This document shows positions 3,620 through 55,754 of a stretch of 64,000 nucleotides of DNA, in pieces. The stretch comes from Candidatus Babelota bacterium (GTDB lineage Bacteria > Babelota > Babeliae > Babelales > Vermiphilaceae). Position 1 is the first letter of the stretch; each line of letters opens with the position of its first letter. The translations under genes and the position numbers were made by a program. The notes beneath the pieces were generated by a model. The model made no database searches. It saw only the letters and a program-made list of their open reading frames with translations, and was not told where the DNA came from. The stretch is taken from contig JBBDMI010000006.1 of assembly GCA_040878395.1 (NCBI GenBank), forward strand, positions 67,145 through 131,144, written 5' to 3'.

Positions 3620-5188
3620 TCATCTAAACTTAAGCTTTTTCATAGCAAGTGCACACATCCCAAGCAAAATCCACAAACAGTAAAATTTACGGATTTGCGT
3701 TGTACCATAGGTACGATCTTTATAATGCACCGGCATATCAACAATTTTTAAATTCAATTTAGCAGCACCAAAAAGCAGATCAAAATCACCAAAAGGATCA
3801 AAGTTGCCAAAAAATGAACGATTACGCGCAATCAATTGATAATCCTCTTTCCACAATACTTTTGTACCACATAATGTGTCTTTTACTCTTTGGCCCAATA
3901 ACCATGAAAAAAGACGACCAAAAAAGTAATTTGCAAAAAAACCTAATAAACGCATTGCACCGGTTTCCATGTTGTATACCAAACGAGAACCATTAATGCA
4001 TTCACCTTTATTTTCAATCAATGCATAATAAAATTTGGGAATTTCTTCCGGTGGAGCGGTTAAATCGGCATCTAAAATCATAACAATATCACCAATAGCA
4101 TAATCAAAACCCAAACGAACAGCATCGCCTTTGCCTTTGCCCTTTTGCACATGAATAGAAATTGATCTATCCGGATATTTTTTTGCAACACGCTTCATTT
4201 CATCCAATGTACCATCAACTGAGTTGCCATCTACAAAAATTAATTCCGTAAACTTTCCCATTTGTGGCGTACGTTTTACCGCAGCTTCGATATTACCTTT
4301 TTCATTCTTACACGGAATCACCACAGAAACGGTATAATCCTGCGCATCACGCTTAATGAACATCGGACGTGCAACAATTGATTGATGCAAACATAAACGA
4401 TTTATGCCAGGAATATGTTTTATGAAAGCGTTAAACAGTGTAGAAATTAACGGGATATATACCGGCAACAACATAAAATGTGATTGGTGTACAACTTGAT
4501 AATTTGAAAGATAAAGAACATGTGCAATATCTTCTTGTGTGAGCCAATTTTTGAATTCTGTTTTTCGACGCAATCCGATCTTTTGTGTTAAACGTAAAAT
4601 AGGTTCCCAAATAGATGAATATGAATCAATAACAATGCGTGTGCCCGCATGACAAAAAGGTTTTAATGATTCAAATAACGCCTGAATATCATACGTATCC
4701 ATAGTAATTGATGAAAGCATAATATAATCAAATGGCTCTTTTTCATCTAAATCTGCAATGGTACCGGTATAAAAATGATGGCGAGAATAAGTTTCCTTAG
4801 CTTCTTGAATCACCATAGGATCCACATCAACACCAACGCCATAACTTGGTTTTACCGCATCGAGTAAATAACCATTTTTGCATTGCAATGCCAAAACACG
4901 CATTCCCTCAGGAATAGTAAACCGATAGAATTTTTTCAATCTATGATGATAATAATGATTTTTTTCAAGCCAATACGAAAACGGTTTATAATCTTCAGGT
5001 ATTTTTTTTAGCGCTCGTTGTTTAGGCACATCTTGATTCAACGAACCTTGGCTCAACGAATCTTGATTCAGCGGATCGTGATTCAGCGGATCGTGATCAA
5101 AATGATGTAACTGATCTTTTATAGGCTCTTTTTTTGTTTTTTGCTTTTCTTGAATTCCCATTACATTCATAACCTTTATGTTTTGCAC
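3620..5188 (-). CDS. bifunctional methyltransferase / GT2 polyprenyl-phosphate glycosyltransferase-like protein (DPM1/GtrB/ArnC-like C-terminal half with TM helices)
   Basis: The N-terminal half resembles a class I MTase (RVLALQCKNGYLLD, FDYIMLSSITMD). The C-terminal half has VSVVIPCKNEKGNIE, FVDGNSVDGT, GKGDAV, ILDADLTAPPEEIP and GSRL, typical of the GT2 DPM1/GtrB type. Hydrophobic segments (LLGFFANYFFGRLFSWLLG, FYCLWILLGMCALAM). No signal peptide. Confidence 0.7.
   Translation of the reverse strand: MQNIKVMNVMGIQEKQKTKKEPIKDQLHHFDHDPLNHDPLNQDSLSQGSLNQDVPKQRALKKIPEDYKPFSYWLEKNHYYHHRLKKFYRFTIPEGMRVLALQCKNGYLLDAVKPSYGVGVDVDPMVIQEAKETYSRHHFYTGTIADLDEKEPFDYIMLSSITMDTYDIQALFESLKPFCHAGTRIVIDSYSSIWEPILRLTQKIGLRRKTEFKNWLTQEDIAHVLYLSNYQVVHQSHFMLLPVYIPLISTLFNAFIKHIPGINRLCLHQSIVARPMFIKRDAQDYTVSVVIPCKNEKGNIEAAVKRTPQMGKFTELIFVDGNSVDGTLDEMKRVAKKYPDRSISIHVQKGKGKGDAVRLGFDYAIGDIVMILDADLTAPPEEIPKFYYALIENKGECINGSRLVYNMETGAMRLLGFFANYFFGRLFSWLLGQRVKDTLCGTKVLWKEDYQLIARNRSFFGNFDPFGDFDLLFGAAKLNLKIVDMPVHYKDRTYGTTQIRKFYCLWILLGMCALAMKKLKFR
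5031..5100 (-). repeat. in-frame 15-bp tandem repeat (~4.5 units) encoding a pentapeptide repeat D/G-P/S-L-N/S-H/Q
   Basis: tcttgattca|acgaaccttggctca|acgaatcttgattca|gcggatcgtgattca|gcggatcgtgatcaa. This translates (minus strand) to HDPLNHDPLNQDSLSQGSLNQD near the N-terminus of the MT-GT2 fusion. Confidence 0.8.
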
Positions 5189-5263: not shown

Positions 5264-6097
5264 TTACGCGTGCAAAGCGTCCTGCAAGAAACGCTTATAA
5301 TAATCAACAGGATTTAAATTTGATGGTTTTCGCGTGACATTATAATCTTTATCATCAAATGCAATAATCTTCTTTTGATATGGTGACTGCCAATGATCAA
5401 AATGACAATACGCCGGTGACAAAATCTTGGTCGGTTCAAAATCAATAAAATAACGATTGATATGACTTTCATCATTTGCCCAAGCAACATAACCTCGTGC
5501 CAAATCAATATGTATACGCTCACTTGCTGTTTGAGTCAACTGTATAAAGGCATCTTTTGTTCCCCCATAAAACGCACCGGCATAATAATGCACTCCCTCA
5601 TTTGCATGCACATATGCGGTGGAAATAGGATTTGCTTCATATGGTTTTATCATATCAAACAAATGCACTGATAATATAGTCGCAACGCGATCAGACAAAA
5701 TTTCATCCCCTACTGCTTGCCCAAATGCCATATCAGCATCAATTGCATACACATAATCTAAATGAGCAAATTTATCTTTATTTTTATAGTATATTTCAAA
5801 ACGCATCATACTATCATATGGCCATCCCATCTGCTCTTGATACACAGTTGTACATTTTTTGTGTTCATAAGGACTATCGGTAAAAACAAAATAAGTTACA
5901 TCATGATTGGATAAAAAATAAGCATCTGCCGAATGTAATAATCTATCAACATACTGAATATAATTACCGGTAGCCATGACACAAAGGCCCACTTTTTTTT
6001 TATCATTAACGAGTATCTTTTGCTCATGTAAAACAAAAGTATGAAAACCCCAAAGACTCATTAATAAACTGGACACTAACAGTATATTTTTTTTCAT
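5264..6097 (-). CDS. GT6-family glycosyltransferase (histo-blood-group ABO / alpha-1,3-Gal(NAc) transferase-like) with signal anchor
   Basis: AWANDESHINRYFIDFEPTKILSPAYC matches the GT6 signature (human GTA: WHDESHLNKYLL..KPTKVLSPEY). DXD-type motif YAIDADMAF. Leader MKKNILLVSSLLMSLWGF. Confidence 0.75.
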   Translation of the reverse strand: MKKNILLVSSLLMSLWGFHTFVLHEQKILVNDKKKVGLCVMATGNYIQYVDRLLHSADAYFLSNHDVTYFVFTDSPYEHKKCTTVYQEQMGWPYDSMMRFEIYYKNKDKFAHLDYVYAIDADMAFGQAVGDEILSDRVATILSVHLFDMIKPYEANPISTAYVHANEGVHYYAGAFYGGTKDAFIQLTQTASERIHIDLARGYVAWANDESHINRYFIDFEPTKILSPAYCHFDHWQSPYQKKIIAFDDKDYNVTRKPSNLNPVDYYKRFLQDALHA

Positions 6098-6202
6098 TTA
6101 ATCACCTTTTTATTCTATAGGAATGCCAGGGCAAACGCATTTAAAATTAAAGTTTAAAGGCATTTTTTAAGTATGATCCATCACTCTTTACAACAAAAAA
6201 TA

Positions 6203-6384
6203 TTTTTCTATTTTGTCATCCCTGAAGGGGATCCAGGCCAATGAAACTCTTAATAATCAAAGGAATATTATCAGAATAAGTCTAAAATAATTCGTAAAAA
6301 ATTATAAAATTATTCTGGCAGAATCTCTCTTAGGATTATACCGGTTACCGCTGGATCCCCTTCAGGGATGACAAAATAGAAAAA
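6203..6384. mobile_element. MITE-like non-autonomous element with perfect 34-bp terminal inverted repeats
   Basis: Left end tttttctattttgtcatccctgaaggggatccag (6203-6236) is the exact reverse complement of 6351-6384. The internal AT-rich core (aataatcaaaggaatattatca...ataccggttaccgctgg) recurs in inverted orientation at 47102..47295. It has no ORF and lies in a divergent intergenic region. Confidence 0.8.
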
Positions 6385-6470
6385 CATTTCATTAATAACG
6401 CCGCACTATTTTACAAATGCGCGATCTCACATTACCATAAATAAAAAGGCTTTTACACAGGAAATTATCG

Positions 6471-7259
6471 ATGAACATAAAAAAAACCGTATTCATATCG
6501 TTATTATTTATTTTCGCCCAATCACATGCAGTTAAAATAGTCACCACCGGTGCACCAAAATCCGGCATTCAAATACTTGCCAATTGCATAAAAGAGATCA
6601 CCAACATAAAAAAAAGCGCCAATATAAAAGGTGACATGTTGCTCGATGCAAAACAGATGCAACAATATGATTTGATTATAGGAACACCGGTATATAATGA
6701 GCGTAATCTGAATATAATTGCAAAACATAATGCAAAAGTCATATACATCATACGCGATCCACGCGATCAAATTGCCTCTACCGCACAAACCATCTATACT
6801 TATCGCTCTCACATTCCAGCAGCAAAAAATAAAAGTCAAAATCAAATAATAGATGAACTTATCACAAATGGTTCAGCATTTTATGCCTATCAATATCCAT
6901 ACCCTGAGGTTAAACAGGTAAAAGGAATCGTGGATCTTTATAGTTTCTGGCTCCCCTGGATTGAACATCCAAACACAATTGTGGTAACCTTTGAACATCT
7001 CTCGGGCGCATATGGCTCACATGCTCAACAAAAAGAGATCCAACATATCGCCACATTTTTGAATATTCCATGCACGGCACAAAAAGCAACTAAAATTGGC
7101 AACAGCCTGCAAAGTGGCGGCCTGTTTGGACTGTTCAAAAAACAACCGAAAGTTGGCAATTGGAAAAACATGTTTAATGCGCAACACAGAAACAAATGCA
7201 AAAATATTGCAGGTCAATTATTAATTGATCTCGGTTATGAAACAGACGTAAACTGGTAA
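6471..7259 (+). CDS. sulfotransferase (PAPS-dependent fold) with signal peptide
   Basis: 5'-PSB-like TTGAPKSGIQ and 3'-PB-like YIIRDPRDQIAS. C-terminal LLIDLGYE is shared with paralogs at 11129 and 20573. Leader MNIKKTVFISLLFIFAQSHA. Confidence 0.75.
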   Translation: MNIKKTVFISLLFIFAQSHAVKIVTTGAPKSGIQILANCIKEITNIKKSANIKGDMLLDAKQMQQYDLIIGTPVYNERNLNIIAKHNAKVIYIIRDPRDQIASTAQTIYTYRSHIPAAKNKSQNQIIDELITNGSAFYAYQYPYPEVKQVKGIVDLYSFWLPWIEHPNTIVVTFEHLSGAYGSHAQQKEIQHIATFLNIPCTAQKATKIGNSLQSGGLFGLFKKQPKVGNWKNMFNAQHRNKCKNIAGQLLIDLGYETDVNW

Positions 7260-8727: not shown

Positions 8728-9747
8728 TTAATCAACAAACTTTTTAAAATATTCAATCGTTTTCTGTAAACCATTAATCAAATGAACCTGAGGAGACCAA
8801 TTAAGTTCTTTTCTTGCCAATAAAATATCGGGCTTTCTGCGACATGGATCATCTTTTGGCAATCTTAAATATACAATTTGCGAGTCACTCTGTATTGAAT
8901 GTAAAATCATTTCAGCAAGCTGAACTAAATTATATTCATCAGGATTTCCTAAATTAATCGGACCGGTAAAATCTGAAGCTGTATCGAACATCATAGATAT
9001 GAACCCATCAATTAAATCATCAACATAACAAAATGATCGTGTTTGTAATCCACTACCATAAATAGTTAATGGCTCACCTTTTAATGCCTGCATAATAAAA
9101 TTACTCACGACACGCCCATCTCTAGGGTCCATGTTTGGGCCATAGGTATTAAAAATGCGCACAACCTTAATAGGAACATTATATTGTCTATGATAATCAA
9201 AAAATAATGATTCAGCACAACGTTTGCCTTCGTCATAACATGAACGAATGCCGATCGGGTTAACCAAACCACGATATGTTTCAACCTGTGGATGTACTTC
9301 CGGATCACCATAAACTTCACTCGTTGAAGCCTGCATAATTAGAGCATTATATTTTTTTGCTAATTCAAGCATATTTATTGCACCTAACACGCATGTCTTA
9401 GTCGTAAAAATAGGATCTTTTTGATAATGTGGCGGCGATGCCGGACAAGCTAAATTAAAAATGTAATCGACTTGAATATCCAATGGATATGTAATGTCAT
9501 GATGCTTAAATGAAAAACGCTTATCTTCAAATAAGGACTCAATATTATCTAAACGTCCTGTATAAAGATTATCTACTGCAATCACGTTATAATCTAAATC
9601 AAGCAATCTTTTACACAGATGACTTCCTAGAAAGCCGGCACCTCCTGTCACCAACACGTTCTTTTGTTGCTCTTGCGTATAAATACAAGGAAAGCTAATC
9701 ACACTGATCACAAAAAACAACCATTGTTTATAGTTGTTCATTATCAT
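8728..9747 (-). CDS. uxs: UDP-glucuronate decarboxylase (UDP-xylose synthase) with N-terminal membrane anchor/signal peptide
   Basis: VLVTGGAGFLGSHLC, VDNLYTGR, ASTSEVYGDPEVHPQ, NPIGIRSCYDEGKRCAE, RIFNTYGP, DGRVVSNFIMQALKGEPLTIYGSGLQTRSF. This is close to near-identical with human UXS1 motifs. Leader MIMNNYKQWLFFVISVISFPCIY. AGGA lies upstream of the ATG. Confidence 0.85.
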   Translation of the reverse strand: MIMNNYKQWLFFVISVISFPCIYTQEQQKNVLVTGGAGFLGSHLCKRLLDLDYNVIAVDNLYTGRLDNIESLFEDKRFSFKHHDITYPLDIQVDYIFNLACPASPPHYQKDPIFTTKTCVLGAINMLELAKKYNALIMQASTSEVYGDPEVHPQVETYRGLVNPIGIRSCYDEGKRCAESLFFDYHRQYNVPIKVVRIFNTYGPNMDPRDGRVVSNFIMQALKGEPLTIYGSGLQTRSFCYVDDLIDGFISMMFDTASDFTGPINLGNPDEYNLVQLAEMILHSIQSDSQIVYLRLPKDDPCRRKPDILLARKELNWSPQVHLINGLQKTIEYFKKFVD

Positions 9748-11128: not shown

Positions 11129-11968
11129 CTAATTTAAATTCCAACTACTATTTTTTTCATATCCCAAATCTATAAGCAAGTCGCCAGCAACATCTTTAAA
11201 CTCCTCAACGTGATGTGGCTTAAAGTATCTCCTCCAAGAGCCTATTCTTTTCCTTCCATTTGGATCAATTTCCCCATGAGTCTGCTCTGATAACTCCAAA
11301 GCTCTTTCGTGGGATAAGTCAATTCCAATATGCCTTGCAATGTTTTTAAGCTCTCTTACTTGCACATCACTTGAGCCTCCACTATAAGCACCCGCTAATT
11401 TTTCATAGGAAGTTACATATACAAAATCATCTCCAAATTTTGTCCATTCAAAATATCTATGATACAAATCATCAATTCCTTTAAAATCTTTCAACTCTGG
11501 ATTGATCCAATGGTTGATGCCCCAATAGAGCTCTGAAGTGTTAAAAATCCACTGCGATAGAGCTTCATCAAAAGATTTTGAAACCAAGCGGGGAAACCAC
11601 TTTTTCCTTTTCACCATATTAATCATAGACACTGCCTGATCGCGAGGGTCCCTAAAAATAAATACTACTTTAAAACCGGCCTTTTTTAACCTTTCGATAT
11701 TTTCTGCTGTGGGCAATGCATGTCCTATTATGGCCTTTTTAGTTTTCACATCTTTATCTGTAATCACAAGATGATCATTTTCTGCATGCTTAAACTTAAT
11801 TTCAGGAGAAATCAAATTTATACAGATTTGCAAAAGCTGTGTTCCACATTTGGGTATAGATGCAATTAAAATGTTACTTGGTACAGCAGATACTTGTAAA
11901 CTTAACAATAACACTCCCAAGTATAATGTTTTATTTTTGATGACCCTACAATAATATTTATTCATCAT
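11129..11968 (-). CDS. sulfotransferase with signal peptide
   Basis: SIPKCGTQLL (5'-PSB-like), FIFRDPRDQAVS (3'-PB-like), C-terminal LLIDLGYE. Start set at MMNKYY..LGVLLLSLQVSA, with GAAGGA upstream. Confidence 0.7.
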   Translation of the reverse strand: MMNKYYCRVIKNKTLYLGVLLLSLQVSAVPSNILIASIPKCGTQLLQICINLISPEIKFKHAENDHLVITDKDVKTKKAIIGHALPTAENIERLKKAGFKVVFIFRDPRDQAVSMINMVKRKKWFPRLVSKSFDEALSQWIFNTSELYWGINHWINPELKDFKGIDDLYHRYFEWTKFGDDFVYVTSYEKLAGAYSGGSSDVQVRELKNIARHIGIDLSHERALELSEQTHGEIDPNGRKRIGSWRRYFKPHHVEEFKDVAGDLLIDLGYEKNSSWNLN

Positions 11969-12000
11969 ACTTTTCCTTCTTGCATAGACCAACATCAATC

Positions 12001-19491: not shown

Positions 19492-20481
19492 ATGAAGCAA
19501 TTCATATTAATAATCATTGTATTGTTATCCCAATACACATTTTCAAGCGGCATAACATTTGGACTGAACGGTGGAAGACTAGGAGATAACATTCTCAACT
19601 ATTGCAAGCATAAATGGATATCTTTAAAATACAATATAGATCTTTATGTTCCTGATTTTAAATACAAAAATAAACTTCCATTGCATCATTATGAAAAATC
19701 AAAGCAAGACCTTCAAAATGCAAATTTTTCTCAAACCAAAAAGCTTCATCATGACAGCCAGATAAATACAAATATAAAAAACTGTATTTATGTTGGCAAT
19801 TACTACCTCACTATTGATGATATTACAAATCGTGATGCATGGCCAAATTACATTTTCAAACTAAGCATCGAACACCCTGAGTTTGGAGCACAATTAAAAA
19901 AAATGCTCACTCCTGAAATAAATCATATGCCATTACCACAAGACATTATCACAGTTGCATTACACATTCGCAAAGGAGGAGGAGTTGACTTACCACTTTC
20001 TTCGCAACAATACATAGAAGATAAACCCAAAACATCTAATACCTCAAAAGGTGCCGATAAATACCATCCATTAAAATTTCCACCTGAACAGTACTACCTT
20101 GACCAATTACTTACCTTATATACTATTCTTGATGAACAACCTCTTTATGCATATATATTCACCGATGACAAGCATCCTGAAAAAATAACTCAACGAATTC
20201 AAGCACATTGTAAAAATAAAAACATTATCTTTGACTGTCGCAAAGAAGACAATGTACACAATAAAAATGTTCTTTATGATGTATGCCTTATGAGCAAGTT
20301 TGACTATCTTATTCGTTCCGGATCACACTTCCCATGGATATCCCAAATAATTGGCAACCATAAAGGAATTATTTTCCCTCAAGGATCTCATTGGGAAGGC
20401 AATAACCTAATAATGGGCCCAATTTTATTTGTAGAGCCAAACAGAAAAAGCAATATCATTGTCGAAACAAAAATTTCATAA
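19492..20481 (+). CDS. putative fucosyltransferase-like protein (GT11-like motifs) with signal peptide
   Basis: VALHIRKGGG (cf. HxRRGDY), YAYIFTDD (cf. FSDD), DVCLMSKFDYLIRSGSHFPWISQIIG (cf. GT11 motif III). Leader MKQFILIIIVLLSQYTFS. Assignment is tentative. Confidence 0.4.
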   Translation: MKQFILIIIVLLSQYTFSSGITFGLNGGRLGDNILNYCKHKWISLKYNIDLYVPDFKYKNKLPLHHYEKSKQDLQNANFSQTKKLHHDSQINTNIKNCIYVGNYYLTIDDITNRDAWPNYIFKLSIEHPEFGAQLKKMLTPEINHMPLPQDIITVALHIRKGGGVDLPLSSQQYIEDKPKTSNTSKGADKYHPLKFPPEQYYLDQLLTLYTILDEQPLYAYIFTDDKHPEKITQRIQAHCKNKNIIFDCRKEDNVHNKNVLYDVCLMSKFDYLIRSGSHFPWISQIIGNHKGIIFPQGSHWEGNNLIMGPILFVEPNRKSNIIVETKIS

Positions 20482-20572
20482 AACCTTAAAGAAAAAGTGA
20501 GGAAAACATTTGTACCCTTTATTAATTAACAAGATAAGTTTCATTAATAATAATAAAAAAAAGGATTTTAAC

Positions 20573-21373
20573 ATGAAAAAAACATTAATAATATTATTAC
20601 TACTGAGCCTCAACCCTATGACCTATACATATAAACTCATAACCACAGGTGCACCAAAGTCTGGAACTCGCATGCTATTAAAATGCGTTGGTGACATAAT
20701 TGGAAATAGCAAATATAATGCTGTAAATGGACACATTCTTCTCACACATAGACAACTCAATCAACTTAACGATCAATGTCAGATTTTGGCTGGACACCCA
20801 ATATTTAATGATCAAAATGTTGCCCATGTGAATCAACACAAAGCAAAAGTTTTTTATATAATTCGAGATCCACGCGACCAAATTGTCTCAATGGCTTTTT
20901 GGATATATAGAAACATTCATACACGTCCTGAATATAAAAATAAATCATTTGATGAAGTACTCATGGAACTCATCACCCAAAGCTCTAAAATTTATGGCAA
21001 GTCCTATAAGCATGATATCGTTTACAATTTAAAAGGCATAACTGAATTTTACAACTTATGGCTTGGCTGGAAATTAGACCTTAACACATACACTACCCAC
21101 TTTGAAAAACTTGTTGGTCCTAAAGGAGGGGGAACTGAACATGAACAATTAAAAGAAATAGAGAACATGTTCAAACATTTGGAAATAGAATATACAGATC
21201 AAGATATACAATATATTGCCGATAATCTATTTGGATCAACTCAAACTTTCCGAGGGGGACAAATTGGTGACTGGAAAAAACATTTTAAAAAAGAACATAT
21301 TAATGCCTTCAAAAAATTTGGAGGACAGCTTCTTATAGATCTCGGGTATGAAATCAATTTAAATTGGCAATAA
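20573..21373 (+). CDS. sulfotransferase with signal peptide
   Basis: TTGAPKSGTRML, YIIRDPRDQIVS, LLIDLGYE. Start at ATG 20573 (MKKTLIILLLLSL) with AAGGA upstream; the ORF-track start at 20510 is TTG. Confidence 0.75.
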   Translation: MKKTLIILLLLSLNPMTYTYKLITTGAPKSGTRMLLKCVGDIIGNSKYNAVNGHILLTHRQLNQLNDQCQILAGHPIFNDQNVAHVNQHKAKVFYIIRDPRDQIVSMAFWIYRNIHTRPEYKNKSFDEVLMELITQSSKIYGKSYKHDIVYNLKGITEFYNLWLGWKLDLNTYTTHFEKLVGPKGGGTEHEQLKEIENMFKHLEIEYTDQDIQYIADNLFGSTQTFRGGQIGDWKKHFKKEHINAFKKFGGQLLIDLGYEINLNWQ

Positions 21374-38666: not shown

Positions 38667-38676
38667 TATCATCCTT

Positions 38677-39798
38677 TTACCAATTCATAACAACTGCAGC
38701 TTGCTTCATCACATAAACTTCATGTTGAATCATTTCTTTGACCAACTGTTCAAAATTAACTTTTGGTTCCCAACCAAGCTTTTCTTTCGCTTTTGTTGCA
38801 TCACCAATGAGCAGATCGACTTCAGCCGGTCTGAAATACTGCGGATCAACAAAAACATACGGCGTACCGGTACGTTTATCAAGGCCACGTTCGTTCAATC
38901 CTTCACCTTCCCATACAATTTCGATACCAACATGTGCAAATGCAATTTCAACAAACTCACGCACTGAATGCATTTGTCCGGTTGCAATCACAAAATCTTC
39001 CGGTTCATCTAACTGCAAAATACGCCACATCGCATCGACATATTCACGTGCATGACCCCAATCACGCTTTGCATCAAGATTTCCTAAATAAAGAGCATCT
39101 TGAAATCCGAATTTAATACGCGCAACAGCACGAGTAATTTTTCGTGTTACAAATGTTTCACCCCGCACCGGTGATTCATGATTAAACAAGATGCCATTAC
39201 ATGCATATAAACCGTATGCTTCGCGATAGTTTTTTGTTATCCAAAAACCGTACAGTTTTGCAACACCATATGGTGAGCGAGGATAAAATGGTGTTAATTC
39301 TGTTTGTGGAATTTCTTGCACTTTCCCATACAGTTCACTGGTTGACGCTTGATAAAAACGAGTTTTATTGGTCAACCCTAAAATGCGAATCGCCTCCAAA
39401 ATACGTAAGGTGCCTAATGCATCAACTTGTGCTGTATATTCCGGAAGTTCAAACGAAACGGCAACATGACTTTGAGCAGCTAAATTATAAATTTCATCCG
39501 GCTCAATCTCTTTTATTAATCGGATAATATTACTTGTATCGGTGATATCGCCATAATGTAATTCAAATCTGTTGTCCGGAGATTGATGTTTATCTCTATA
39601 GATGTGATCTAATCGTGGAGTATTGAATGATGAAGCTCGACGTTTGACCCCATGAACTTTATACCCTTTTTGTAATAACAGTTCAACTAAGTATGAACCA
39701 TCTTGCCCGGTAACTCCGATGATCAATGCAACTTTGGCATGTATGGATATAACACCTAGTAACAACAATAAAACTAATTTAAACATACTTTTTTTCAT
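38677..39798 (-). CDS. gmd: GDP-mannose 4,6-dehydratase carrying an N-terminal signal peptide-like extension
   Basis: [76 protein letters not shown]. Homology to E. coli Gmd ([18 protein letters not shown]) starts right after the leader [26 protein letters not shown] lies 5 nt upstream of ATG 39798. Confidence 0.9.
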
Positions 39799-39817
39799 TC
39801 TCATCCTTTTTTTTACC

Positions 39818-39844
39818 TTTGTCATCCTCGAAGAGGATCCAGGC
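39818..39844. repeat. solo arm of the TTTGTCAT-hairpin repeat family
   Basis: tttgtcatcctcgaagaggatccaggc, with hairpin atcctc-gaa-gaggat. It lies ~20 nt upstream of the gmd copy 1 start. Confidence 0.7.
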
Positions 39845-39891: not shown

Positions 39892-40899
39892 CTACTCTGC
39901 TTCAAATATATGAAATCGCTCACACCATTCAAGGGTTTTTTCAATCCCTGCTTTTAAATCGGTTTTTGCTTGCCATCCGAGTTCGGTCATTTTATCAACA
40001 TTGAGCAGCTTACGCGGTGTTCCATCAGGCTTTGATCTGTCCCAAACAATTTCACCTTCAAAACCAACAACCTCTTTTATCATGTTGGTCAACTCGGAAA
40101 TTGAAACATCAACACCGGTACCAATATTGACTATTTCACTGCCATCATATTGATTCATTAAGAAAATACAAGCATCAGCTAAATCTTCAACATACAAAAA
40201 TTCACGAAATGGGGATCCTGTTCCCCAAGCAACAAATTCTTTTTGGCCACGCAACTTTGCAGTATAAACTTTACGCAATAATGCAGGCAAAACATGTGAT
40301 GTTTCTAAATTAAAATTATCATTTGGTCCATATAAATTTGTCGGCATACATGCAATAAAATTTGTTTCATATTGACGATTATAAGCTTGGCACATTTTAA
40401 TACCGGTTATTTTTGCAATTGCATACGGCTCATTTGTCCATTCCAGTTCACTGGTGAGTAAATACTCTTCTTTCATCGGTTGAGGACAATTGCGCGGATA
40501 AATACATGAAGAGCCTAAAAAGAGCATTTTTTTTACTTTAAAATGATACGATGCATGAATAATGTTCGATTGAATCATTACATTGTCATAAATAAATTCT
40601 GCTGGTTTGTCACGATTTGCCAAAATACCACCAACCTTTGCCGCACACATAAATACATAATCCGGACGCTCATGATGAAAAAATTTGTAAACTTCTTGTT
40701 GATTACGCAAATCAAGCTCATGGTGATTACGCGTTATGATATTAGAATAACCTTCATCTTTTAATTGACGTACAATTGCAGAACCAACCAATCCACGATG
40801 ACCTGCAACATAAATTTTTGCTTTTTTATGCATCTCTGCTTGGCACGAAACTGCAGCAGTCAAACCTGCCATTACCATCGACAATCCTCTCTTCATCAT
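39892..40899 (-). CDS. fcl: GDP-L-fucose synthase (GDP-4-keto-6-deoxymannose 3,5-epimerase/4-reductase) with hydrophobic N-terminal extension
   Basis: KIYVAGHRGLVGSAIVRQL, LGSSCIYP, EPYAIAKI, PTNLYGPNDNF, SHVLPALL. GGAGA lies upstream of the MMKRGLSMVMAGLTAAVSCQA start. An internal Met23 (40833, MHKKAKIYVAG) would give a canonical cytosolic form. Confidence 0.85.
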   Translation of the reverse strand: MMKRGLSMVMAGLTAAVSCQAEMHKKAKIYVAGHRGLVGSAIVRQLKDEGYSNIITRNHHELDLRNQQEVYKFFHHERPDYVFMCAAKVGGILANRDKPAEFIYDNVMIQSNIIHASYHFKVKKMLFLGSSCIYPRNCPQPMKEEYLLTSELEWTNEPYAIAKITGIKMCQAYNRQYETNFIACMPTNLYGPNDNFNLETSHVLPALLRKVYTAKLRGQKEFVAWGTGSPFREFLYVEDLADACIFLMNQYDGSEIVNIGTGVDVSISELTNMIKEVVGFEGEIVWDRSKPDGTPRKLLNVDKMTELGWQAKTDLKAGIEKTLEWCERFHIFEAE

Positions 40900-45898: not shown

Positions 45899-46996
45899 CT
45901 ATATTTCCAACTGTGCTATTTTTTGGCCTACAGTCATAACGCCGGACATTTGTTCATTATTTAGCAACTCTTGCTCATCAGCTTTAATCATGATACTAAC
46001 CAATTCATAAAAGGTGACCTTTGGTTTCCACTGCAAAATCTTTTCTGCTTTTGAAGCATCACCACGCAATTGCTCAACCTCTGTTGGTCTAAAATATTGT
46101 GGATCTACTGCGACAATTTTATTTCCTGTATCAGCATCAATTGCATAAGCATCTTTACCGTGGCCAAGCCATTGCAACTTAATATCCACACATGCAAACG
46201 CCAAATCAACAAATTCACGGACACTGTGCATCTGCCCGGTCGCAATAACTAAATCATGCGGTCTCTCTTGTTGTAACATAAGCCACATAGCCTCTACATA
46301 ATCTTTTGCATATCCCCAATCACGCTTTGCATCTAAATTACCCAAATATAATGTTTGTTGCACGCCATGTTTTATGCGCACAGCTGCACGGGTAATTTTA
46401 CGCGTTACAAAAGTCTCACCACGCATTGGAGATTCATGATTAAATAAAATACCATTACATGCAAACATGCCATAGGCTTCGCGATAATTTTTTGTTATCC
46501 AATATGCATACAGTTTTGCTGCAGCATACGGCGAACGTGGTGCAAATGGGGTATGTTCATTCTGTGGACACTCAGTCGCATTACCATATAATTCACTCGT
46601 GGAAGCTTGATAAAAACGTACTTTTTCAGTTAAACCTAAAATACGAATAGCTTCTAACATACGCAGTGTGCCAAGTCCATCAGCTTGTGCTGTATACTCC
46701 GGTGTTTCAAATGAAACTGCAACATGACTTTGCGCTGCTAAATGATAAATCTCATCAGGTTGAATTTCCTGAATAACACGGATTAAATTGGTAGAATCGG
46801 TGACATCGCCATAATGCAACTGAAAGCGTCGCTCAGGCGATTCATGTTGATCTTGAAATAGGTGGTCAACACGTGAAGTATTAAATGAAGAAGAGCGCCG
46901 CTTGATGCCATGCACTTCATATCCTTTTTGCAATAACAGCTCTGCTAAATATGAACCATCTTGTCCGGTGACACCGGTAATAAGCGCTCTTTTCAT
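45899..46996 (-). CDS. gmd: GDP-mannose 4,6-dehydratase (canonical, no leader)
   Basis: [75 protein letters not shown] 7 nt upstream of the ATG. Confidence 0.9.
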
Positions 46997-47408: not shown

Positions 47409-48530
47409 TTACAGATGTTTTTTATAACTACCTTGTTTTAATAATTTTACAATGCCACGCACATTTTCCGCAGCATCACGCTTGGTAATCAACAGTGCAT
47501 CATCAACTTCGACAACACACAAATCATCAACACCAACAAGCGCAACCAATTTACCCGGGACATCAACTAAATTATTACGTGCATCAACACCAATAAAATT
47601 CGCATCCAAAGTGTTATACTGTTGTTTCAATGACAAAAACACCTCAATGTTTCCTACATCACACCAAGAAAAATCAACCGGCATAACCGAAACATGCTTG
47701 CTTCGTTCCATAACGGCATAATCAATTGAATCGGCAACAACTTTTTCATAGCTACCAACATTGTCTAAGTAGTTTTTAACACCTGCGAACATTTCCGATG
47801 CTTCTTGTTGAAACTCACGCATAAACGTTGAAGCCTGTGCACAAAAAATACTTATATTCCAAAGTTTATTGCCTTGTTCGATATATTGTTGTGCAACTTC
47901 GAATGACGGCTTTTCACGGAAACGACTCACTTTATATGGCGCTTGTTGCTCTAATGCATCCTGTGGATCAAATTCAATATATCCATAACCGGTTGCAGGA
48001 TAAGTCGGCTCTACACCAAGTAGTACGATATCATCATGCTTTGTTGCATGATCAACTGCATGATCTAAAAAGTCTCTACACTTTTCCCAATCACGTTTTG
48101 GAATAAACGGATCTGCCGGCAGGAAAACAATAACAGCATTTGGATCAATTGCATGGATTTCCATACAACATAATAAAATTGCAGGTCCGGTGTTGCGCGA
48201 ACCAGGCTCAACTAAAATACGCCCAACACGATGCTCAACAGATAACCGAATGTTTTCTTCATGCTTAGCTGTTGTACTTATCCAAATATGATCTTTTGTT
48301 GTCATCGGCGCAATACGATCAATTGCTTGCTCAAGTAACGTAACATCAGAACCTAATGTTAATAGCTGTTTTGGCTTGCATTGTCGACTCAACGGCCATA
48401 AGCGAGAACCATCACCACCGGCTAAAATAACACAATACAGATTTTTTTTATTCATATTAGTTCCGTGTGCTGTAAATGCTGAACATGCGACCAATAAACA
48501 CGCAAATAGTTTTTTACCATGAAATACCAT
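47409..48530 (-). CDS. manC: mannose-1-phosphate guanylyltransferase with signal peptide-like leader
   Basis: YCVILAGGDGSRLWPLSRQCKPKQLL plus an NTP-transferase fold. The start at Met13 (MVFHGKKLFACLLVACSAFTAHG) has AGGAG 7 nt upstream. An internal Met38 (48455, MNKKNLYCVILAGG) would give a canonical leaderless form but has no clear SD. Confidence 0.8.
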   Translation of the reverse strand: MVFHGKKLFACLLVACSAFTAHGTNMNKKNLYCVILAGGDGSRLWPLSRQCKPKQLLTLGSDVTLLEQAIDRIAPMTTKDHIWISTTAKHEENIRLSVEHRVGRILVEPGSRNTGPAILLCCMEIHAIDPNAVIVFLPADPFIPKRDWEKCRDFLDHAVDHATKHDDIVLLGVEPTYPATGYGYIEFDPQDALEQQAPYKVSRFREKPSFEVAQQYIEQGNKLWNISIFCAQASTFMREFQQEASEMFAGVKNYLDNVGSYEKVVADSIDYAVMERSKHVSVMPVDFSWCDVGNIEVFLSLKQQYNTLDANFIGVDARNNLVDVPGKLVALVGVDDLCVVEVDDALLITKRDAAENVRGIVKLLKQGSYKKHL

Positions 48531-49854
48531 ACCAATGCTCCTTTTTTTTGGTAATATAACAAACAACTATTTTCCATATACCAACCGATGTCAATAACAT
48601 TAAAATCGGTTCAAAAACAATACGATATCGACAGCATCCGTCAATACCTGTTGGAAAGCTCAAACTGATCATCATTACTACAAAAAACCAGCCAATTAAA
48701 CTATTCATTTTAAAAACAACATATAATCCAACAATTGTCAGCAATAAACGAATGATTGACCATATCAATTCAAACCATGTAATATTCTCAACCCATTTGT
48801 GTGAAGTGCCGCCCATAATATAGTGATGTATACGTTGAGTCAAAGAACCTGATTGCACAAAAAAAGAATGCGCCATTTTATGTCGCTCCGGCTCAAGTAA
48901 TCTTTTGAGTTGCGTACTATACAAACCAAGCCATGTTTTGCACACATTAACAAACCAAATGCGCACAAATGTAAAAGGATGTTTTTTTAGGTAGGTATAA
49001 AAAATTTTTTTTGCCGGTTGCCACCCCTGATCATCCAAACTATGTTTTCCCGCAAAACGCAACTCTGTTTCTATAATCTCTTGTGGATCTTTTTGTTCAA
49101 CAGAGCCGATTACTTTTGCTAACAAAACTTGATACAGATTCACTTGGGCTGTAGGCGCAAAAGCAAAACAACCGTACTGCACATAATTACGCGTCATATA
49201 CATGGTTAATGGCAAAAAAAATGAAAACAACAATAATAATATATTTTTTATTTTAGAATGATGCATTGCAAAAAAGGTAATAATAGAAAGGCAAACAACA
49301 AACAACATTGCAACTGGTTTTATCAACATTGAAATACCTAAAAATAATCCCGAAAAACACAATGCACTGCTATCATGCGTTTTTAAAAAAGTAAGATAAC
49401 GCTCAACAAACAATAATAAAACAACCAATAAAAGCGTTTCGGCTAAAATCAATTGTGGATACACATAAAATCCAATAGTACCTAAAAAACAAAAAGCAGT
49501 AATGGCAGCTATCATTTTATTAAAAAAAGTAGATGCAATATGCATTAACAATAAAAGTGCACAACTCATAAGTAATATTTGCACGATAATAATTGGTGTA
49601 ATAGTATGCCCAAATAGTGTAAATAGTACCCCCATCACAAATGGGTATCCCACCGGCTGAATAGGAGCACTATTTACACTATTTGGGTCAGTCAAGGTTC
49701 CTGTTTGCGCAAAATGCCAAGCGATTGGATCATAGCCATAGGAATCAACATCATAATGACCCTGCGGTTTTGGCACAAAAAAATATAACGTAGTTGCAAA
49801 AAAAAGATACACTAGAATAAAAACAAATGATTCTTTTTGCACGTTAAGCAACAT
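48514..49854 (-). CDS. polytopic GT-C-fold membrane glycosyltransferase (ArnT/PMT-like)
   Basis: About 10 or more hydrophobic helices. An N-terminal loop with YGYDPIAWHF and PIQPVGYPFVMGVLFTLFG is typical of the GT39/GT83-type. It is the only polytopic protein in the island. Confidence 0.45.
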   Translation of the reverse strand: MLLNVQKESFVFILVYLFFATTLYFFVPKPQGHYDVDSYGYDPIAWHFAQTGTLTDPNSVNSAPIQPVGYPFVMGVLFTLFGHTITPIIIVQILLMSCALLLLMHIASTFFNKMIAAITAFCFLGTIGFYVYPQLILAETLLLVVLLLFVERYLTFLKTHDSSALCFSGLFLGISMLIKPVAMLFVVCLSIITFFAMHHSKIKNILLLLFSFFLPLTMYMTRNYVQYGCFAFAPTAQVNLYQVLLAKVIGSVEQKDPQEIIETELRFAGKHSLDDQGWQPAKKIFYTYLKKHPFTFVRIWFVNVCKTWLGLYSTQLKRLLEPERHKMAHSFFVQSGSLTQRIHHYIMGGTSHKWVENITWFELIWSIIRLLLTIVGLYVVFKMNSLIGWFFVVMMISLSFPTGIDGCCRYRIVFEPILMLLTSVGIWKIVVCYITKKKEHWYGISW

Positions 49855-55387: not shown

Positions 55388-55754
55388 ACATTTTACTCCT
55401 TGAATCTGCAAAAGATTCCTTTTTTAAAGGGTGTTTCTACCCTATATCACACTTAACTATACCAATATTCAGCTCATCTGACCTATCTGCTTTAATTTTA
55501 TAATAGCAATTAAATAAATGGCATAGCAAGGCTTTTACAGACAAATGATACAAACTTCATTAAATGTCATAAAATAGCTATAAGAGAGGGAGTCAATGAT
55601 ATTACAGGAGGAAATACGTGTGAGGATGCCCCAAGAGTCTTCCGTATTAATTTTATTTTGTTTTTATCTTAACCTGCAGCTTTGCTTATTCCAGCACTTT
55701 GAACTGAGTCAATACCATCTTTAAATAAACGATTAACATAAGTACACCAATTTA

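What the first reader, a model, noticed from the sequence alone, without database searches (positions are those of the whole stretch)
5264..6097. ABO histo-blood-group-like GT6 glycosyltransferase with retained DXD motif
Seen: AWANDESHINRYFIDFEPTKILSPAYC aligns with the diagnostic GT6 block (WHDESHLNKY...KPTKVLSPEY in human GTA/GTB and alpha3GalT). An acidic metal-binding-type motif IDADM is present. Established: GT6 is mainly a vertebrate family. Only a few bacterial or phage members are known (for example Bacteroides ovatus BoGT6a and E. coli O86 WbnI), and several of those replace DXD with NXN. Their acceptor is typically Fuc-alpha1,2-Gal (H antigen). Inference: together with a complete GDP-fucose branch and a GT11-like candidate in the same island, this suggests synthesis of a blood-group A/B-like epitope, as host mimicry or host glycan editing.
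Basis: partly seen in the sequence, partly recalled or inferred. Interest (0 to 1): 0.65.

Follow-up and report, generated by a model that had tools for sequence, protein, structure and literature searches.

The report
Blood-group-type sugar transferase in a protist parasite
This is a real, probably active relative of the human ABO blood-group enzymes, encoded by a Dependentiae bacterium (a parasite of protists); it belongs to an already described bacterial and phage branch of the family, but it carries an export-type leader, as do almost all the other sugar-building enzymes in the 48-kb island around it.

Summary
ORF 5264-6097(-) is a family-6 glycosyltransferase: Pfam PF03414 E=1.6e-42, an AlphaFold model with pLDDT 95, and rmsd 1.4-1.6 Å to BoGT6a. 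It keeps D120-A-D122 and the catalytic Glu210.

- The GDP-fucose branch is present (ManC, two GMD, Fcl).
- ORF 19492-20481 is a distant GT11-like fucosyltransferase (hhalign 96.9% against a Pfam-verified phage GT11; fold hits are only fucosyltransferases).
- GT6 with a DXD motif is not rare. All 120 best homologues keep it, 224 GTDB species genomes and 72 phage records encode relatives, and the clade was described in 2012 (Parachlamydia PaGT6, an A-antigen synthase).
- The carriers are Dependentiae, Chlamydiota and similar lineages that live inside protists, so mimicry of a vertebrate host is unlikely.

The query sits in a 100%-supported subclade with an altered acceptor pocket (His→Leu, Trp→Ala) and an Ala-Gly-Ala donor motif. 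In the human enzyme that motif gives GalNAc > Gal dual specificity.

Most unusual: the GT6, 39 of 48 island proteins, and even GMD, Fcl and ManC start with signal-peptide-like segments. This is conserved across lineages and hints at glycosylation outside the bacterial cytoplasm.

Verdict: a new variant of a known kind, of moderate interest.

The parts
5264..6097 (-). GT6 glycosyltransferase gene (277 aa), the finding itself
   Evidence: Pfam PF03414 E=1.6e-42. PDB sequence hits to ABO, BoGT6a and alpha3GalT. AF2 model pLDDT 95.4 with Foldseek TM up to 0.90.
6026..6097 (-). N-terminal Lys-Lys plus 21-residue uncharged hydrophobic segment (residues 1-24): Sec signal peptide or uncleaved signal anchor
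   Evidence: Sequence MKKNILLVSSLLMSLWGFHTFVLH. Modelled as a helix over residues 2-23. A comparable segment is present in nearly all 120 homologues.
6102..6107 (-). Shine-Dalgarno AGGTGA, 4 nt upstream of the ATG
   Evidence: Read from the sequence. It supports the upstream start, so the hydrophobic N-terminus is translated.
5732..5740 (-). DXD metal-binding motif D120-A-D122
   Evidence: Aligns with human D211-V-D213 and BoGT6a N95-A-N97. Invariant D-x-D in 120 of 120 homologues.
5573..5581 (-). Donor-specificity tripeptide A173-G174-A175 (human codons 266-268)
   Evidence: Alignment. In the human GTA backbone AGA gives A +++++ and B ++ activity (PMC5377540 Table 2).
5468..5473 (-). D209-E210, equivalent to human D302-E303 (catalytic Glu)
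   Evidence: Invariant in 120 of 120 homologues.
3620..5188 (-). Methyltransferase-GT2 fusion 75 nt downstream of GT6 on the same strand. The GT2 part resembles polyprenyl-phosphate sugar synthases. It has no signal-like N-terminus.
   Evidence: Pfam. PDB best hits are Dol-P-Man synthase 5mlz (3e-15), ArnC and GtrB. The GT6 then MT-GT2 order is conserved in L002, L003, L004, L082 and L083.
19492..20481 (+). Distant GT11-like (alpha1,2-fucosyltransferase-like) enzyme with a signal-like N-terminus
   Evidence: hhalign of A3 against phage B23 GT11: probability 96.9%, E=1.9e-10. The phage protein is Pfam GT11, E=2.8e-21. AF2 model pLDDT 94.5; the top 33 Foldseek hits are all fucosyltransferases. 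Homologues lie within 10 kb of GT6 in 12 of 78 loci, with two copies in L082.
38677..39825 (-). GDP-mannose 4,6-dehydratase paralogue with a ~30-aa signal-like N-terminal extension
   Evidence: Pfam GDP_Man_Dehyd E=1.5e-158, domain starting at residue 34. N-terminus shown.
39892..40899 (-). GDP-L-fucose synthase (Fcl) with a signal-like N-terminus
   Evidence: NCBIfam GDPFucSynFcl 485.5 bits, just below the 500-bit cutoff, starting at residue 26. Signal-bearing Fcl is conserved in about 11 related loci.
45899..46996 (-). Second GDP-mannose 4,6-dehydratase, without an N-terminal extension (cytoplasmic type)
   Evidence: Pfam E=6.3e-157, domain from residue 5.
47409..48566 (-). Mannose-1-phosphate guanylyltransferase (ManC-like) with a signal-like N-terminus
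   Evidence: Pfam NTP_transferase plus ManC beta-helix. N-terminus shown.

Best explanation
ORF 5264-6097(-) encodes a functional, metal-dependent, retaining family-6 glycosyltransferase. It belongs to the prokaryotic 'minimal catalytic domain + DXD' branch, the same type as Parachlamydia PaGT6 and cyanophage P-SSM2.

Proposed mechanism:
- Asp120 and Asp122 hold Mn2+/Mg2+ on the UDP diphosphate.
- Arg99, Asp209 and Asn208 hold the donor sugar.
- Glu210 assists front-side transfer of an alpha-linked GalNAc, and less well Gal, to O3 of a beta-galactoside.

The most likely acceptor is a Fuc-alpha1,2-Gal unit. That unit would be made by the GT11-like enzyme (19492-20481) from GDP-fucose supplied by the island. 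The product would be a blood-group-A/B-like cap on a larger methylated and sulfated glycan.

The protein is made with an N-terminal Sec-type signal or anchor, like about 40 other enzymes in the island. I therefore infer that the catalytic domain works on the outer side of the cytoplasmic membrane: in the periplasm, on the cell surface, or in the host compartment that houses this intracellular bacterium. There it would use nucleotide sugars taken from or shared with the host.

What is shown: family membership, fold, intact catalytic motifs, gene context, and conservation of the N-terminal segment. What is inferred: donor preference, fucosylated acceptor, and extracytoplasmic location.
For: Family, fold and motifs.

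Branch placement:
- 37% identity to P-SSM2 GT6, against about 30% to ABO and BoGT6a.
- In the NJ tree the query clade has 100% bootstrap, inside an 88%-supported group next to the WHDESH-type group. Phage, human and Bacteroides enzymes fall outside.

Characterised relative: PaGT6 is Mg/Mn-dependent, transfers GalNAc to H trisaccharide and 2'-fucosyllactose, and is inactive on LacNAc (PMC3516806).

Donor: the query motif is AGA. In human GTA this motif gives A +++++ and B ++ (PMC5377540 Table 2).

Fucose link:
- GMD, Fcl and ManC lie in the island.
- The GT11-like ORF is supported.
- GMD lies within 10 kb of GT6 in 17 of 78 related loci, Fcl in 15 and the GT11-like gene in 12.
- L082, from the query's own clade, has two GT11-like genes 4.7 and 8.7 kb upstream of its GT6.
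- Cyanophages B23 and P-SSM2 place GT11 next to or near GT6.
- The small residue Ala246 at the position that must make room for the 2'-fucose is retained.

Export:
- A hydrophobic N-terminus occurs in nearly all 120 homologues and in 39 of 48 island ORFs. It is of the same style as the porin-like 61565-62590.
- It is absent from housekeeping genes such as purA, asnB, the DNA ligase and the second GMD.
- In the cultured Dependentiae C. destructans, 44% of CDS carry signal peptides (PMC6561590).
- Precedent: Chlamydia secretes glycogen enzymes that use UDP-Glc imported into the inclusion lumen (PMC4829429).
- No Wzx, Wzy or initiating-transferase Pfam hit was found among the window's ORFs of 120 aa or more.
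Against: No biochemistry was done.

Acceptor pocket: in the family-wide alignment the query subclade has replaced contacts that bind the H antigen in BoGT6a and GTA/GTB. The changes are His122/233→Leu142, Gly124/235→Val144, Thr134/245→Pro152 and Trp189/300→Ala207 (with Trp206 one position earlier); the donor-sugar contact His190/301→Asn208 is also replaced. The acceptor may therefore not be fucosylated. The pairwise alignment to BoGT6a instead places query His145 on His122, so this call depends on the alignment.

Gene distances: the GT11-like gene is 13 kb from GT6 and on the other strand. GMD and Fcl are about 33 kb away in this genome.

Topology:
- Leloir glycosyltransferases normally need cytoplasmic UDP-sugars.
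- The flanks of the hydrophobic segment are positively charged on both sides (+2.1 and +1.6 in the clade), so the positive-inside rule does not decide orientation.
- The 21-residue segment could be a plain membrane anchor.
- No signal-peptide predictor was available; my scoring is crude.
Confidence: 0.5

Rival explanations
1. The enzyme has the same chemistry (retaining alpha1,3-Gal/GalNAc transfer) but acts on a non-fucosylated or otherwise different acceptor, as alpha3GalT, iGb3 synthase and Forssman synthase do. The product would be an alpha-Gal/alpha-GalNAc cap unrelated to the A/B antigens.
For: The query's 22-member subclade (100% bootstrap) has Leu for the His that hydrogen-bonds the acceptor. 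In alpha3GT this His is Gln, which is linked to non-fucosylated acceptors (PMC3516806). The subclade also has Val for Gly at A2, Ala for the 'highly conserved' stacking Trp, and Pro for Thr. In this subclade the constant operon partner is the MT-GT2 polyprenyl-P-sugar-synthase-like gene, not a fucosyltransferase.
Against: Ala246 at the fucose-accommodating A7 position is kept small, whereas alpha3GT has Trp there. An acidic residue is kept next to the human D326 position. GT11-like and GDP-fucose genes recur close to GT6, including in the same subclade in L082. The only characterised relative in this branch needs the fucose.
Confidence: 0.3
2. The N-terminal hydrophobic helix is only a membrane tether. 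The catalytic domain faces the bacterial cytoplasm, and the enzyme works in a classical undecaprenyl-linked LOS, O-antigen or capsule pathway, as E. coli O86 WbnI and BoGT6a do.
For: UDP-sugars are cytoplasmic in bacteria. Other GT6 enzymes are membrane-tethered by other means: the BHB domain in BoGT6a and an N-terminal anchor in vertebrates (PMC3516806). Flank charges are about equal on both sides. A Wzx-type flippase and GT4 enzymes lie near the GT6 of relative L083.
Against: Most homologues have short segments ending in small-x-small residues immediately before the catalytic core, like cleavable signal peptides. The same N-termini occur on soluble enzymes that have no reason to be tethered (GMD, Fcl, ManC, sulfotransferases) and on ankyrin-repeat proteins and a porin-like protein. 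The window has no flippase, polymerase or initiating transferase.
Confidence: 0.25
3. The enzyme is a secreted effector that edits host glycans (protist glycoproteins or glycolipids on the vacuole or in the secretory pathway) rather than building a bacterial surface glycan.
For: The leader is of export type. The neighbouring enzymes resemble eukaryotic types: Sulfotransfer_1, GT32/Gb3-synthase-like, GT47/RXYLT1-like. Signal-bearing ankyrin-repeat proteins lie in the same island. Secretomes in Dependentiae are large. The family is distributed across unrelated protist-associated lineages.
Against: A Sec signal alone reaches only the periplasm. No dedicated secretion signal or system was identified here. 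The co-located polyprenyl-P-sugar synthase and PMT_2 GT-C enzyme point to modification of the bacterium's own envelope. There are no experimental data.
Confidence: 0.15
4. The protein is a catalytically dead GT6-fold protein, either a carbohydrate-binding protein or a decaying gene.
For: Several acceptor-site residues differ from characterised enzymes.
Against: All donor and catalytic residues are intact and invariant across 120 homologues: T43, R99, D120, D122, Y171, D209, E210. The ORF is full-length with a good SD. The subclade is conserved at 63-76% identity. The model confidence is very high.
Confidence: 0.03

Closest known systems
PaGT6 of Parachlamydia acanthamoebae (Thiyagarajan et al. 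2012, Sci Rep 2:940, PMC3516806): prokaryotic DXD-type GT6, 'clade 1'
   Same: Both have a minimal catalytic domain, a D-x-D motif and no C-terminal BHB domain, and both come from an intracellular bacterium of amoebae or protists. Sequences of this presumed type (WHDESH, H-P-G, A-G-G; the PaGT6 sequence itself was not compared) are the query's nearest large sister group at about 45-50% identity. PaGT6 is metal-dependent and makes A antigen from H acceptors.
   Different: The query subclade has AGA instead of AGG at the donor tripeptide. It has Leu-Ser-Val-His instead of His-Pro-Gly-Phe, and Trp-Ala-Asn-Asp-Glu instead of x-Trp-His-Asp-Glu, at the acceptor/donor loops. Its linker is longer (about 11 aa) after a hydrophobic N-terminal segment of about 19-21 aa. 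The 2012 paper does not mention any signal peptide. Activity of the query is untested.
Cyanophage GT6 (Prochlorococcus phage P-SSM2 PSSM2_268; Synechococcus phage B23 gp348)
   Same: DXD-type minimal GT6, 37% identical to the query. It is encoded near a GT11 fucosyltransferase gene, the same functional pairing as inferred here.
   Different: The phage proteins start directly at the first beta-strand (MKICILTIATNKY..) with no hydrophobic leader. Their setting is a phage genome, and they fall outside the endosymbiont radiation in the tree.
Human GTA/GTB (ABO) and bovine alpha3GalT (vertebrate GT6)
   Same: GT-A fold with TM ~0.71-0.77. Shared features are the DXD motif, the Asp-Glu catalytic pair, the donor tripeptide position, and an N-terminal hydrophobic anchor that places the domain in a non-cytosolic compartment.
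   Different: Only about 30% identity. The query has no long stem region. Acceptor contacts H233, W300, H301 and T245 are not conserved in the family-wide alignment. The gene is bacterial.
BoGT6a (Bacteroides ovatus) and WbnI (E. coli O86): bacterial NXN-type GT6
   Same: Bacterial origin and the same fold (rmsd 1.4-1.6 Å, TM up to 0.90). These enzymes make A or B antigen on fucosylated acceptors.
   Different: They are metal-independent with N-x-N and tethered by a C-terminal BHB domain. The query keeps DXD, lacks a BHB domain and has an N-terminal leader. The query scores 176 bits, below the 250-bit cutoff of NCBIfam NF041524 Gltr_6.

Membership tests
CAZy GT6 / Pfam Glyco_transf_6 (PF03414) | Significant match to the family profile above the curated threshold | tested here: met
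   145.8 bits against a cutoff of 25, E=1.6e-42, profile positions 62-312 of 313.
CAZy GT6 / Pfam Glyco_transf_6 (PF03414) | GT-A fold superimposable on solved GT6 structures | tested here: met
   AF2 model pLDDT 95.4. Foldseek hits to GTA/GTB, BoGT6a and alpha3GalT at E~1e-25, TM 0.71-0.90, rmsd down to 1.4 Å.
CAZy GT6 / Pfam Glyco_transf_6 (PF03414) | Catalytic Glu (human E303, bovine E317, BoGT6a E192) preceded by Asp | tested here: met
   D209-E210 align. Both are invariant in 120 of 120 homologues.
CAZy GT6 / Pfam Glyco_transf_6 (PF03414) | Retaining alpha1,3-Gal/GalNAc transferase activity with a UDP-sugar donor | not testable with these tools
   Requires an enzyme assay. Donor contacts T43, R99 and D209 are conserved; H301/H190 is Asn208.
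Metal-dependent DXD-type prokaryotic GT6 (clade 1: PaGT6, P-SSM2) | D-x-D motif instead of N-x-N | tested here: met
   D120-A-D122. D-x-D is present in 120 of 120 homologues.
Metal-dependent DXD-type prokaryotic GT6 (clade 1: PaGT6, P-SSM2) | Minimal catalytic domain with no C-terminal basic-hydrophobic-basic membrane domain and no vertebrate stem | tested here: met
   The protein is 277 aa. The core starts at residue ~35. The C-terminal tail PVDYYKRFLQDALHA forms a short helix at 263-276 without a BHB pattern.
Metal-dependent DXD-type prokaryotic GT6 (clade 1: PaGT6, P-SSM2) | Groups with PaGT6-type and phage sequences rather than with the vertebrate or NXN clades | tested here: inconclusive
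   The query has higher identity to P-SSM2 (37%) than to ABO or BoGT6a (~30%). In the NJ tree ABO and BoGT6a fall outside, but the deep nodes have only 45-48% bootstrap. The PaGT6 sequence itself was not available.
Blood-group A/B synthase function (H-antigen-dependent) | Acceptor-contact residues for Fuc-alpha1,2-Gal: His233/122, Thr245/134, Trp300/189, and a small residue at A7 | tested here: not met
   In the family-wide alignment these positions are Leu142, Pro152 and Ala207; only Ala246 (A7), Tyr171, Trp236 and Glu210 are retained. Caveat: the pairwise HMMER alignment puts His145 on His122.
Blood-group A/B synthase function (H-antigen-dependent) | Genomic coupling to an alpha1,2-fucosyltransferase and a GDP-fucose supply | tested here: met
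   The GT11-like ORF 19492-20481 is supported. GMD, Fcl and ManC are present. These genes recur near GT6 in related loci.
NCBIfam NF041524 Gltr_6 subfamily | Score at or above the curated cutoff | tested here: not met
   176.4 bits against a cutoff of 250.
CAZy GT11 (for the partner ORF 19492-20481) | Match to Pfam Glyco_transf_11 above threshold | tested here: not met
   No Pfam or NCBIfam hit even at E<=10, and none of 70 homologues has a precomputed Pfam domain. Only remote homology supports it: hhalign 96.9% and a fucosyltransferase-type GT-B fold. It should be called GT11-like, not a GT11 member.

The most novel reading that the evidence does not exclude
The GT6 is one component of an exported, Golgi-like glycosylation toolkit shared by unrelated protist-dwelling bacteria (Dependentiae, Chlamydiota, some Pseudomonadota). 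In this reading, Leloir glycosyltransferases (GT6, GT2, GT32, GT47-like, GT11-like), PAPS-dependent sulfotransferases, methyltransferases and even the nucleotide-sugar enzymes GMD, Fcl, ManC and a UXS-like enzyme are sent across the cytoplasmic membrane by Sec-type leaders. They would then assemble fucosylated, A/B-like, methylated and sulfated glycans in the periplasm or in the host-derived compartment, using host nucleotide sugars. This would be nucleotide-sugar metabolism and Leloir glycosylation outside the bacterial cytoplasm.
Probability: 0.3. Interest if true: 0.85.

Novelty: new variant of a known kind. Interest (0 to 1): 0.5.

Why it matters
The gene itself extends a known branch of the ABO family, the DXD-type prokaryotic GT6. 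It also shows that this branch is large and concentrated in bacteria that live inside protists, which bears on the debated prokaryote-to-vertebrate origin of the ABO genes. The query's subclade has a remodelled acceptor pocket and an AGA donor motif, so it is a candidate source of new alpha-Gal/GalNAc transferase specificities for glycan synthesis. The wider point is the conserved export-type leaders on this GT6, on dozens of neighbouring sugar-modifying enzymes, and on GDP-fucose pathway enzymes. If these leaders are functional, intracellular bacteria would run a glycosylation pathway outside their own cytoplasm. So far this is known only in the special case of chlamydial glycogen synthesis in the inclusion.

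Tried and rejected
- Direct GT11 detection: Pfam at E<=10 and NCBIfam found nothing in any window ORF. The claim was rescued only by profile-profile and fold comparison.
- Tested whether the two-domain GT2 proteins (37140-38672, 33799-35220) or the GTx proteins (25861-26739, 32897-33787) are GT74 or GT2-type fucosyltransferases. PDB sequence searches gave only generic GT2 hits or nothing. WrtF (9omh) scored only E=1.8. This remains unresolved.
- The look-up of encoding contigs for the query protein returned only a 2.7-kb Logan contig, so the window was annotated by Pfam in batches instead.
- The listing of cluster members gave no organism names.
- Literature searches for Dependentiae glycosyltransferases or signal peptides on them found nothing relevant. 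The Brew 2010 review (PMC2988317) is not held.
- Promoter and terminator scans around the gene were at background level.
- Rfam and tRNA scans of the window were empty.
- The first MAFFT result (His233→Leu) was re-examined. A pairwise alignment to BoGT6a shifts the loop by two residues. The family-wide gradient ATQHPGF → ATIQPNY → ATILSVH favours the Leu assignment, but it stays uncertain.
- The positive-inside rule was tried to settle topology and did not discriminate.
- Rejected: contamination from a eukaryote or giant virus. The window has Shine-Dalgarno sites, a Legionella_OMP-type porin, dense intron-free genes, and an identical NCBI Dependentiae MAG protein.
Full report

Yes. The minus-strand ORF 5264-6097 (277 aa) contains both quoted peptides. 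An AGGTGA Shine-Dalgarno site sits 4 nt before the ATG at 6097.

- It matches Pfam Glyco_transf_6 at E=1.6e-42, 145.8 bits against a cutoff of 25.
- By sequence it hits human GTA/GTB at 1e-31, Bacteroides BoGT6a at 2e-30 and bovine alpha3GalT at 1e-25.
- An AlphaFold2 model built on 95 homologues has pLDDT 95.4 and pTM 0.88.
- The model superimposes on GTA/GTB, BoGT6a and alpha3GalT with Foldseek E~1e-25, TM up to 0.90 and rmsd 1.4-1.6 Å.
- IDADM aligns on the human VDVDM, so the DXD motif is D120-A-D122. DES aligns on D302-E303, so the catalytic Glu is E210.

Neither is met.

**2. Where it comes from and how common it is**

The identical protein is an NCBI 'hypothetical protein' of a Candidatus Dependentiae MAG, on a 133.8-kb contig.

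- There are 302 word-sharing homologues.
- There are 2245 clusters at 50% identity with E<=1e-3.
- Relatives occur in 224 GTDB species genomes and 72 phage records, mostly cyanophages.
- The 78 best genome loci come from Dependentiae/Babeliales, Chlamydiota (Parachlamydiaceae, Rhabdochlamydiaceae, Simkaniaceae), 'uncultured Pseudomonadota' and a few 'Verrucomicrobiota' MAGs. Cultured Dependentiae and these chlamydial families live inside protists.
- All 120 best homologues keep D-x-D, Glu303, Asp302 and Arg188. DXD retention is therefore the norm here, not an exception.

This branch is already in the literature. Thiyagarajan et al. 2012 (PMC3516806) divide GT6 into three groups:
1. Prokaryotic minimal enzymes with DXD: cyanophage P-SSM2, marine metagenome sequences, and Parachlamydia PaGT6.
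2. Vertebrate enzymes.
3. Bacterial NXN enzymes with a C-terminal BHB domain.

The same paper shows that PaGT6 is Mg/Mn-dependent, transfers GalNAc to H trisaccharide and 2'-fucosyllactose, and does not act on LacNAc.

**3. Position within the family and the active site**

A neighbour-joining tree with 60 bootstraps puts the query in a 22-sequence clade with 100% support. That clade lies inside a 49-sequence group with 88% support. This group lies next to the larger 'WHDESH' group, which I take to include PaGT6 on the basis of its motifs. Cyanophage, human ABO and BoGT6a fall outside, with weak deep support of 45-48%.

The family-wide alignment with ABO and BoGT6a shows the following.
- Donor and catalytic residues are conserved: Thr43, Arg99, Asp120, Asp122, Tyr171, Asp209, Glu210.
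- The query's subclade differs at positions that contact the acceptor in BoGT6a and GTA/GTB (listed in PMC3516806). The changes are His122/233→Leu142, Gly124/235→Val144, Phe125→His145, Thr134/245→Pro152 and Trp189/300→Ala207 (with Trp206 one position earlier). The donor-sugar contact His190/301 is also replaced, by Asn208.
- Ala246 stays small. This is the position whose small side chain makes room for the 2'-fucose.
- An acidic residue next to the human D326 position is kept.

One caveat applies. The pairwise HMMER alignment to BoGT6a shifts the loop so that query His145 falls on His122. The graded series ATQHPGF → ATIQPNY → ATILSVH across the family favours the Leu assignment.

The donor tripeptide is Ala-Gly-Ala. 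In Yamamoto's code table for the human A transferase, AGA gives A activity +++++ and B activity ++, whereas AGG (as in BoGT6a and the presumed PaGT6-type sequences) gives A only (PMC5377540 Table 2). From this I predict UDP-GalNAc as the main donor, with some use of UDP-Gal. This is an inference.

**4. Genomic context**

Pfam and NCBIfam scans of all 56 non-nested ORFs of 120 aa or more show that window positions ~100-48,600 form one glycan island, mostly on the minus strand. It contains:
- the GT6;
- about ten GT2 enzymes (two of them two-domain) and six GT32 enzymes, one with a Gb3-synthase C-terminal region;
- two GT47/RXYLT1-like proteins;
- five Sulfotransfer_1 proteins;
- three FkbM-type and several other methyltransferases;
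- a UXS-like SDR;
- ManC, two GMD paralogues and Fcl (485.5 bits, just under the 500-bit cutoff);
- a PMT_2 GT-C enzyme and two ankyrin-repeat proteins.

No flippase, polymerase or initiating transferase was detected.

The GT6 is the first gene of a same-strand run: GT6, then a methyltransferase-GT2 fusion after a 75-nt gap, then a methyltransferase, an unknown protein and a TPR protein. The GT2 part of the fusion is closest to Dol-P-Man synthase, ArnC and GtrB. The GT6 → MT-GT2 order is conserved in the closest relatives L002, L003, L004, L082 and L083.

**5. The fucose link**

No ORF hits Pfam GT11. ORF 19492-20481 nevertheless carries GT11-like motifs: GRLGDNILNY, HIRKGGG, FTDD and DVCLMSKFDYLIRSGSHFPW.

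- The profile of its 66 homologues, none of which has any Pfam annotation, aligns to Synechococcus phage B23 gp347 with hhalign probability 96.9%, E=1.9e-10, over 233 columns, motif on motif.
- gp347 is itself Pfam GT11 at E=2.8e-21.
- The ORF's AlphaFold model has pLDDT 94.5. The 33 best PDB matches are all GT-B fucosyltransferases (FUT8, AtFUT1, POFUT2, NodZ), at modest TM of about 0.4-0.5.

Across the 78 related loci, the genes found within 10 kb of the GT6 are:

| Neighbour | Loci out of 78 |
|---|---|
| Homologue of the two-domain GT2 37140-38672 | 60 |
| GMD | 17 |
| Fcl | 15 |
| GT11-like gene | 12 |

Two gene orders recur: ManC-Fcl-GMD-GT2-GT32-GT32-GTx-GT2-GT6, and GMD, Fcl | GT2-GTx-GT6. 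In L082, a member of the query's own clade, two GT11-like genes lie 4.7 and 8.7 kb upstream of the GT6. Cyanophages B23 and P-SSM2 also place GT11 beside or near GT6. Gene context therefore supports a Fuc-alpha1,2-Gal acceptor, while the active-site substitutions argue for caution.

**6. The unexpected feature: export-type leaders**

The GT6 begins MKK followed by 21 uncharged, mostly hydrophobic residues, modelled as a helix over residues 2-23. Nearly all 120 homologues have such a segment.

- In the WHDESH group it is about 17 residues, often ends in small-x-small, and sits about 4 residues before the catalytic core, like a cleavable signal peptide.
- In the query's clade it is about 19 residues followed by an 11-residue linker, which is more like a signal anchor.
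- Phage GT6 proteins have none.

In the island, 39 of 48 ORFs satisfy a simple K/R-plus-hydrophobic-stretch rule, and only four clearly lack such an N-terminus. Those that have it include GMD 38677-39825, Fcl, ManC and the UXS-like SDR. A second GMD (45899-46996) has none. Leader-bearing GMD and Fcl are conserved next to GT6 in many lineages. Housekeeping genes in the same loci (purA, asnB, DNA ligase) lack such leaders, and a porin-like protein has the same kind of leader.

Two published observations bear on this. In the cultured Dependentiae Chromulinavorax destructans, 44% of CDS carry signal peptides and are thought to be exported through Sec (PMC6561590). Chlamydia trachomatis secretes glycogen-synthesis enzymes that use UDP-glucose imported into the inclusion lumen (PMC4829429).

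From this I infer that the GT6 acts outside the cytoplasmic membrane. The inference is limited in three ways:
- No signal-peptide predictor was available.
- The segment is flanked by positive charge on both sides, so orientation is not settled.
- The source of the UDP-sugar is unexplained.

**7. Verdict**

The gene is a genuine, probably active DXD-type GT6. As a family member it is ordinary and already anticipated by PaGT6 and P-SSM2. It counts as a new variant because its subclade has a remodelled acceptor pocket, an AGA donor motif and a signal-anchor-like N-terminus. It also sits in a very large island of leader-bearing glycan enzymes.

My estimates are:
- that it is an active GT6 transferase: about 0.95;
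- that it is metal-dependent: about 0.85;
- that it makes an A/B-like Fuc-containing epitope: about 0.4;
- that its catalytic domain is extracytoplasmic: about 0.55.

Mimicry of vertebrate blood groups is unlikely, given the inferred protist host.

Noticed in passing
window ~100-48600 (e.g. 38677-39825, 39892-40899, 47409-48566, 8728-9747, 6471-7259): Nearly every enzyme of the 48-kb glycan island starts with a K/R-rich segment followed by a hydrophobic one, like a signal peptide. This includes glycosyltransferases, sulfotransferases and methyltransferases, and also the soluble nucleotide-sugar enzymes GMD, Fcl, ManC and a UXS-like SDR. Under a simple rule 39 of 48 ORFs qualify, and only 4 clearly lack it. 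Leader-bearing GMD and Fcl are conserved beside GT6 in Dependentiae, Chlamydiota and Pseudomonadota MAGs.
   Followed up: partly
window 6198-6389 and 47105-47292: A MITE-like element. Its 39-nt inverted-repeat arms (97% complementary, 114 nt apart) lie in the divergent GT6/sulfotransferase intergenic region. A second copy of the arm pair lies between GMD2 and ManC. Zero matches are expected by chance.
   Followed up: partly
window 37140-38672 and 33799-35220; 25861-26739 and 32897-33787: Two-domain proteins with an N-terminal GT2 and a C-terminal second GT-A-like domain. The second domain resembles the stand-alone 'GTx' proteins (DIVIFSLNP versus DLIIFSYNRP) and gives only weak TIGR04440 or GT2 hits. 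Homologues of 37140-38672 are the commonest GT6 neighbour, in 60 of 78 loci. Their function is unknown; a galactosyl- or fucosyltransferase role was not resolved.
   Followed up: partly
window 3620-5188 and 48514-49890: A methyltransferase fused to a Dol-P-Man-synthase/ArnC/GtrB-like GT2, with no leader, lies directly downstream of GT6. A PMT_2 (GT-C, ArnT-like) membrane enzyme lies at the other end of the island. Together these are the ingredients of a lipid-phosphate-sugar route for periplasmic glycosylation.
   Followed up: partly
window 6471-7259, 11129-11998, 20510-21373, 24263-25045, 44975-45805: Five Sulfotransfer_1-family (PAPS-dependent, eukaryote-type) proteins with signal-like N-termini in one bacterial island. 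Together with three FkbM methyltransferases, they suggest sulfated and methylated glycans.
   Followed up: no
window 38677-39825 versus 45899-46996: Two GDP-mannose dehydratase paralogues in the same island, one with a ~30-aa leader and one without. The same duality is seen in L047 and L039.
   Followed up: partly
L080 2210-3720; L081 255-3211: Cyanophages B23 and P-SSM2 carry a Pfam-verified or annotated GT11 gene adjacent to or three genes upstream of their GT6 gene. This suggests phage-encoded synthesis of an H-type and then an A/B-type structure.
   Followed up: partly
representative library hits P0191, P0192, P0216, P0243, P0263, P0325 etc.: Many GT6 domains are embedded in very long proteins of 500-1294 aa, some with two matched stretches, of unknown origin and architecture.
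   Followed up: no
window 42756-44804, 54662-55411, 56844-57779, 59869-61179, 61565-62590, 62617-63975: Flanking genes typical of a protist-associated bacterium: two signal-bearing ankyrin-repeat proteins, an ATP-dependent DNA ligase, a weak WD40-like protein, a Legionella_OMP-type porin and a protein with a GH81 C-terminal domain.
   Followed up: no
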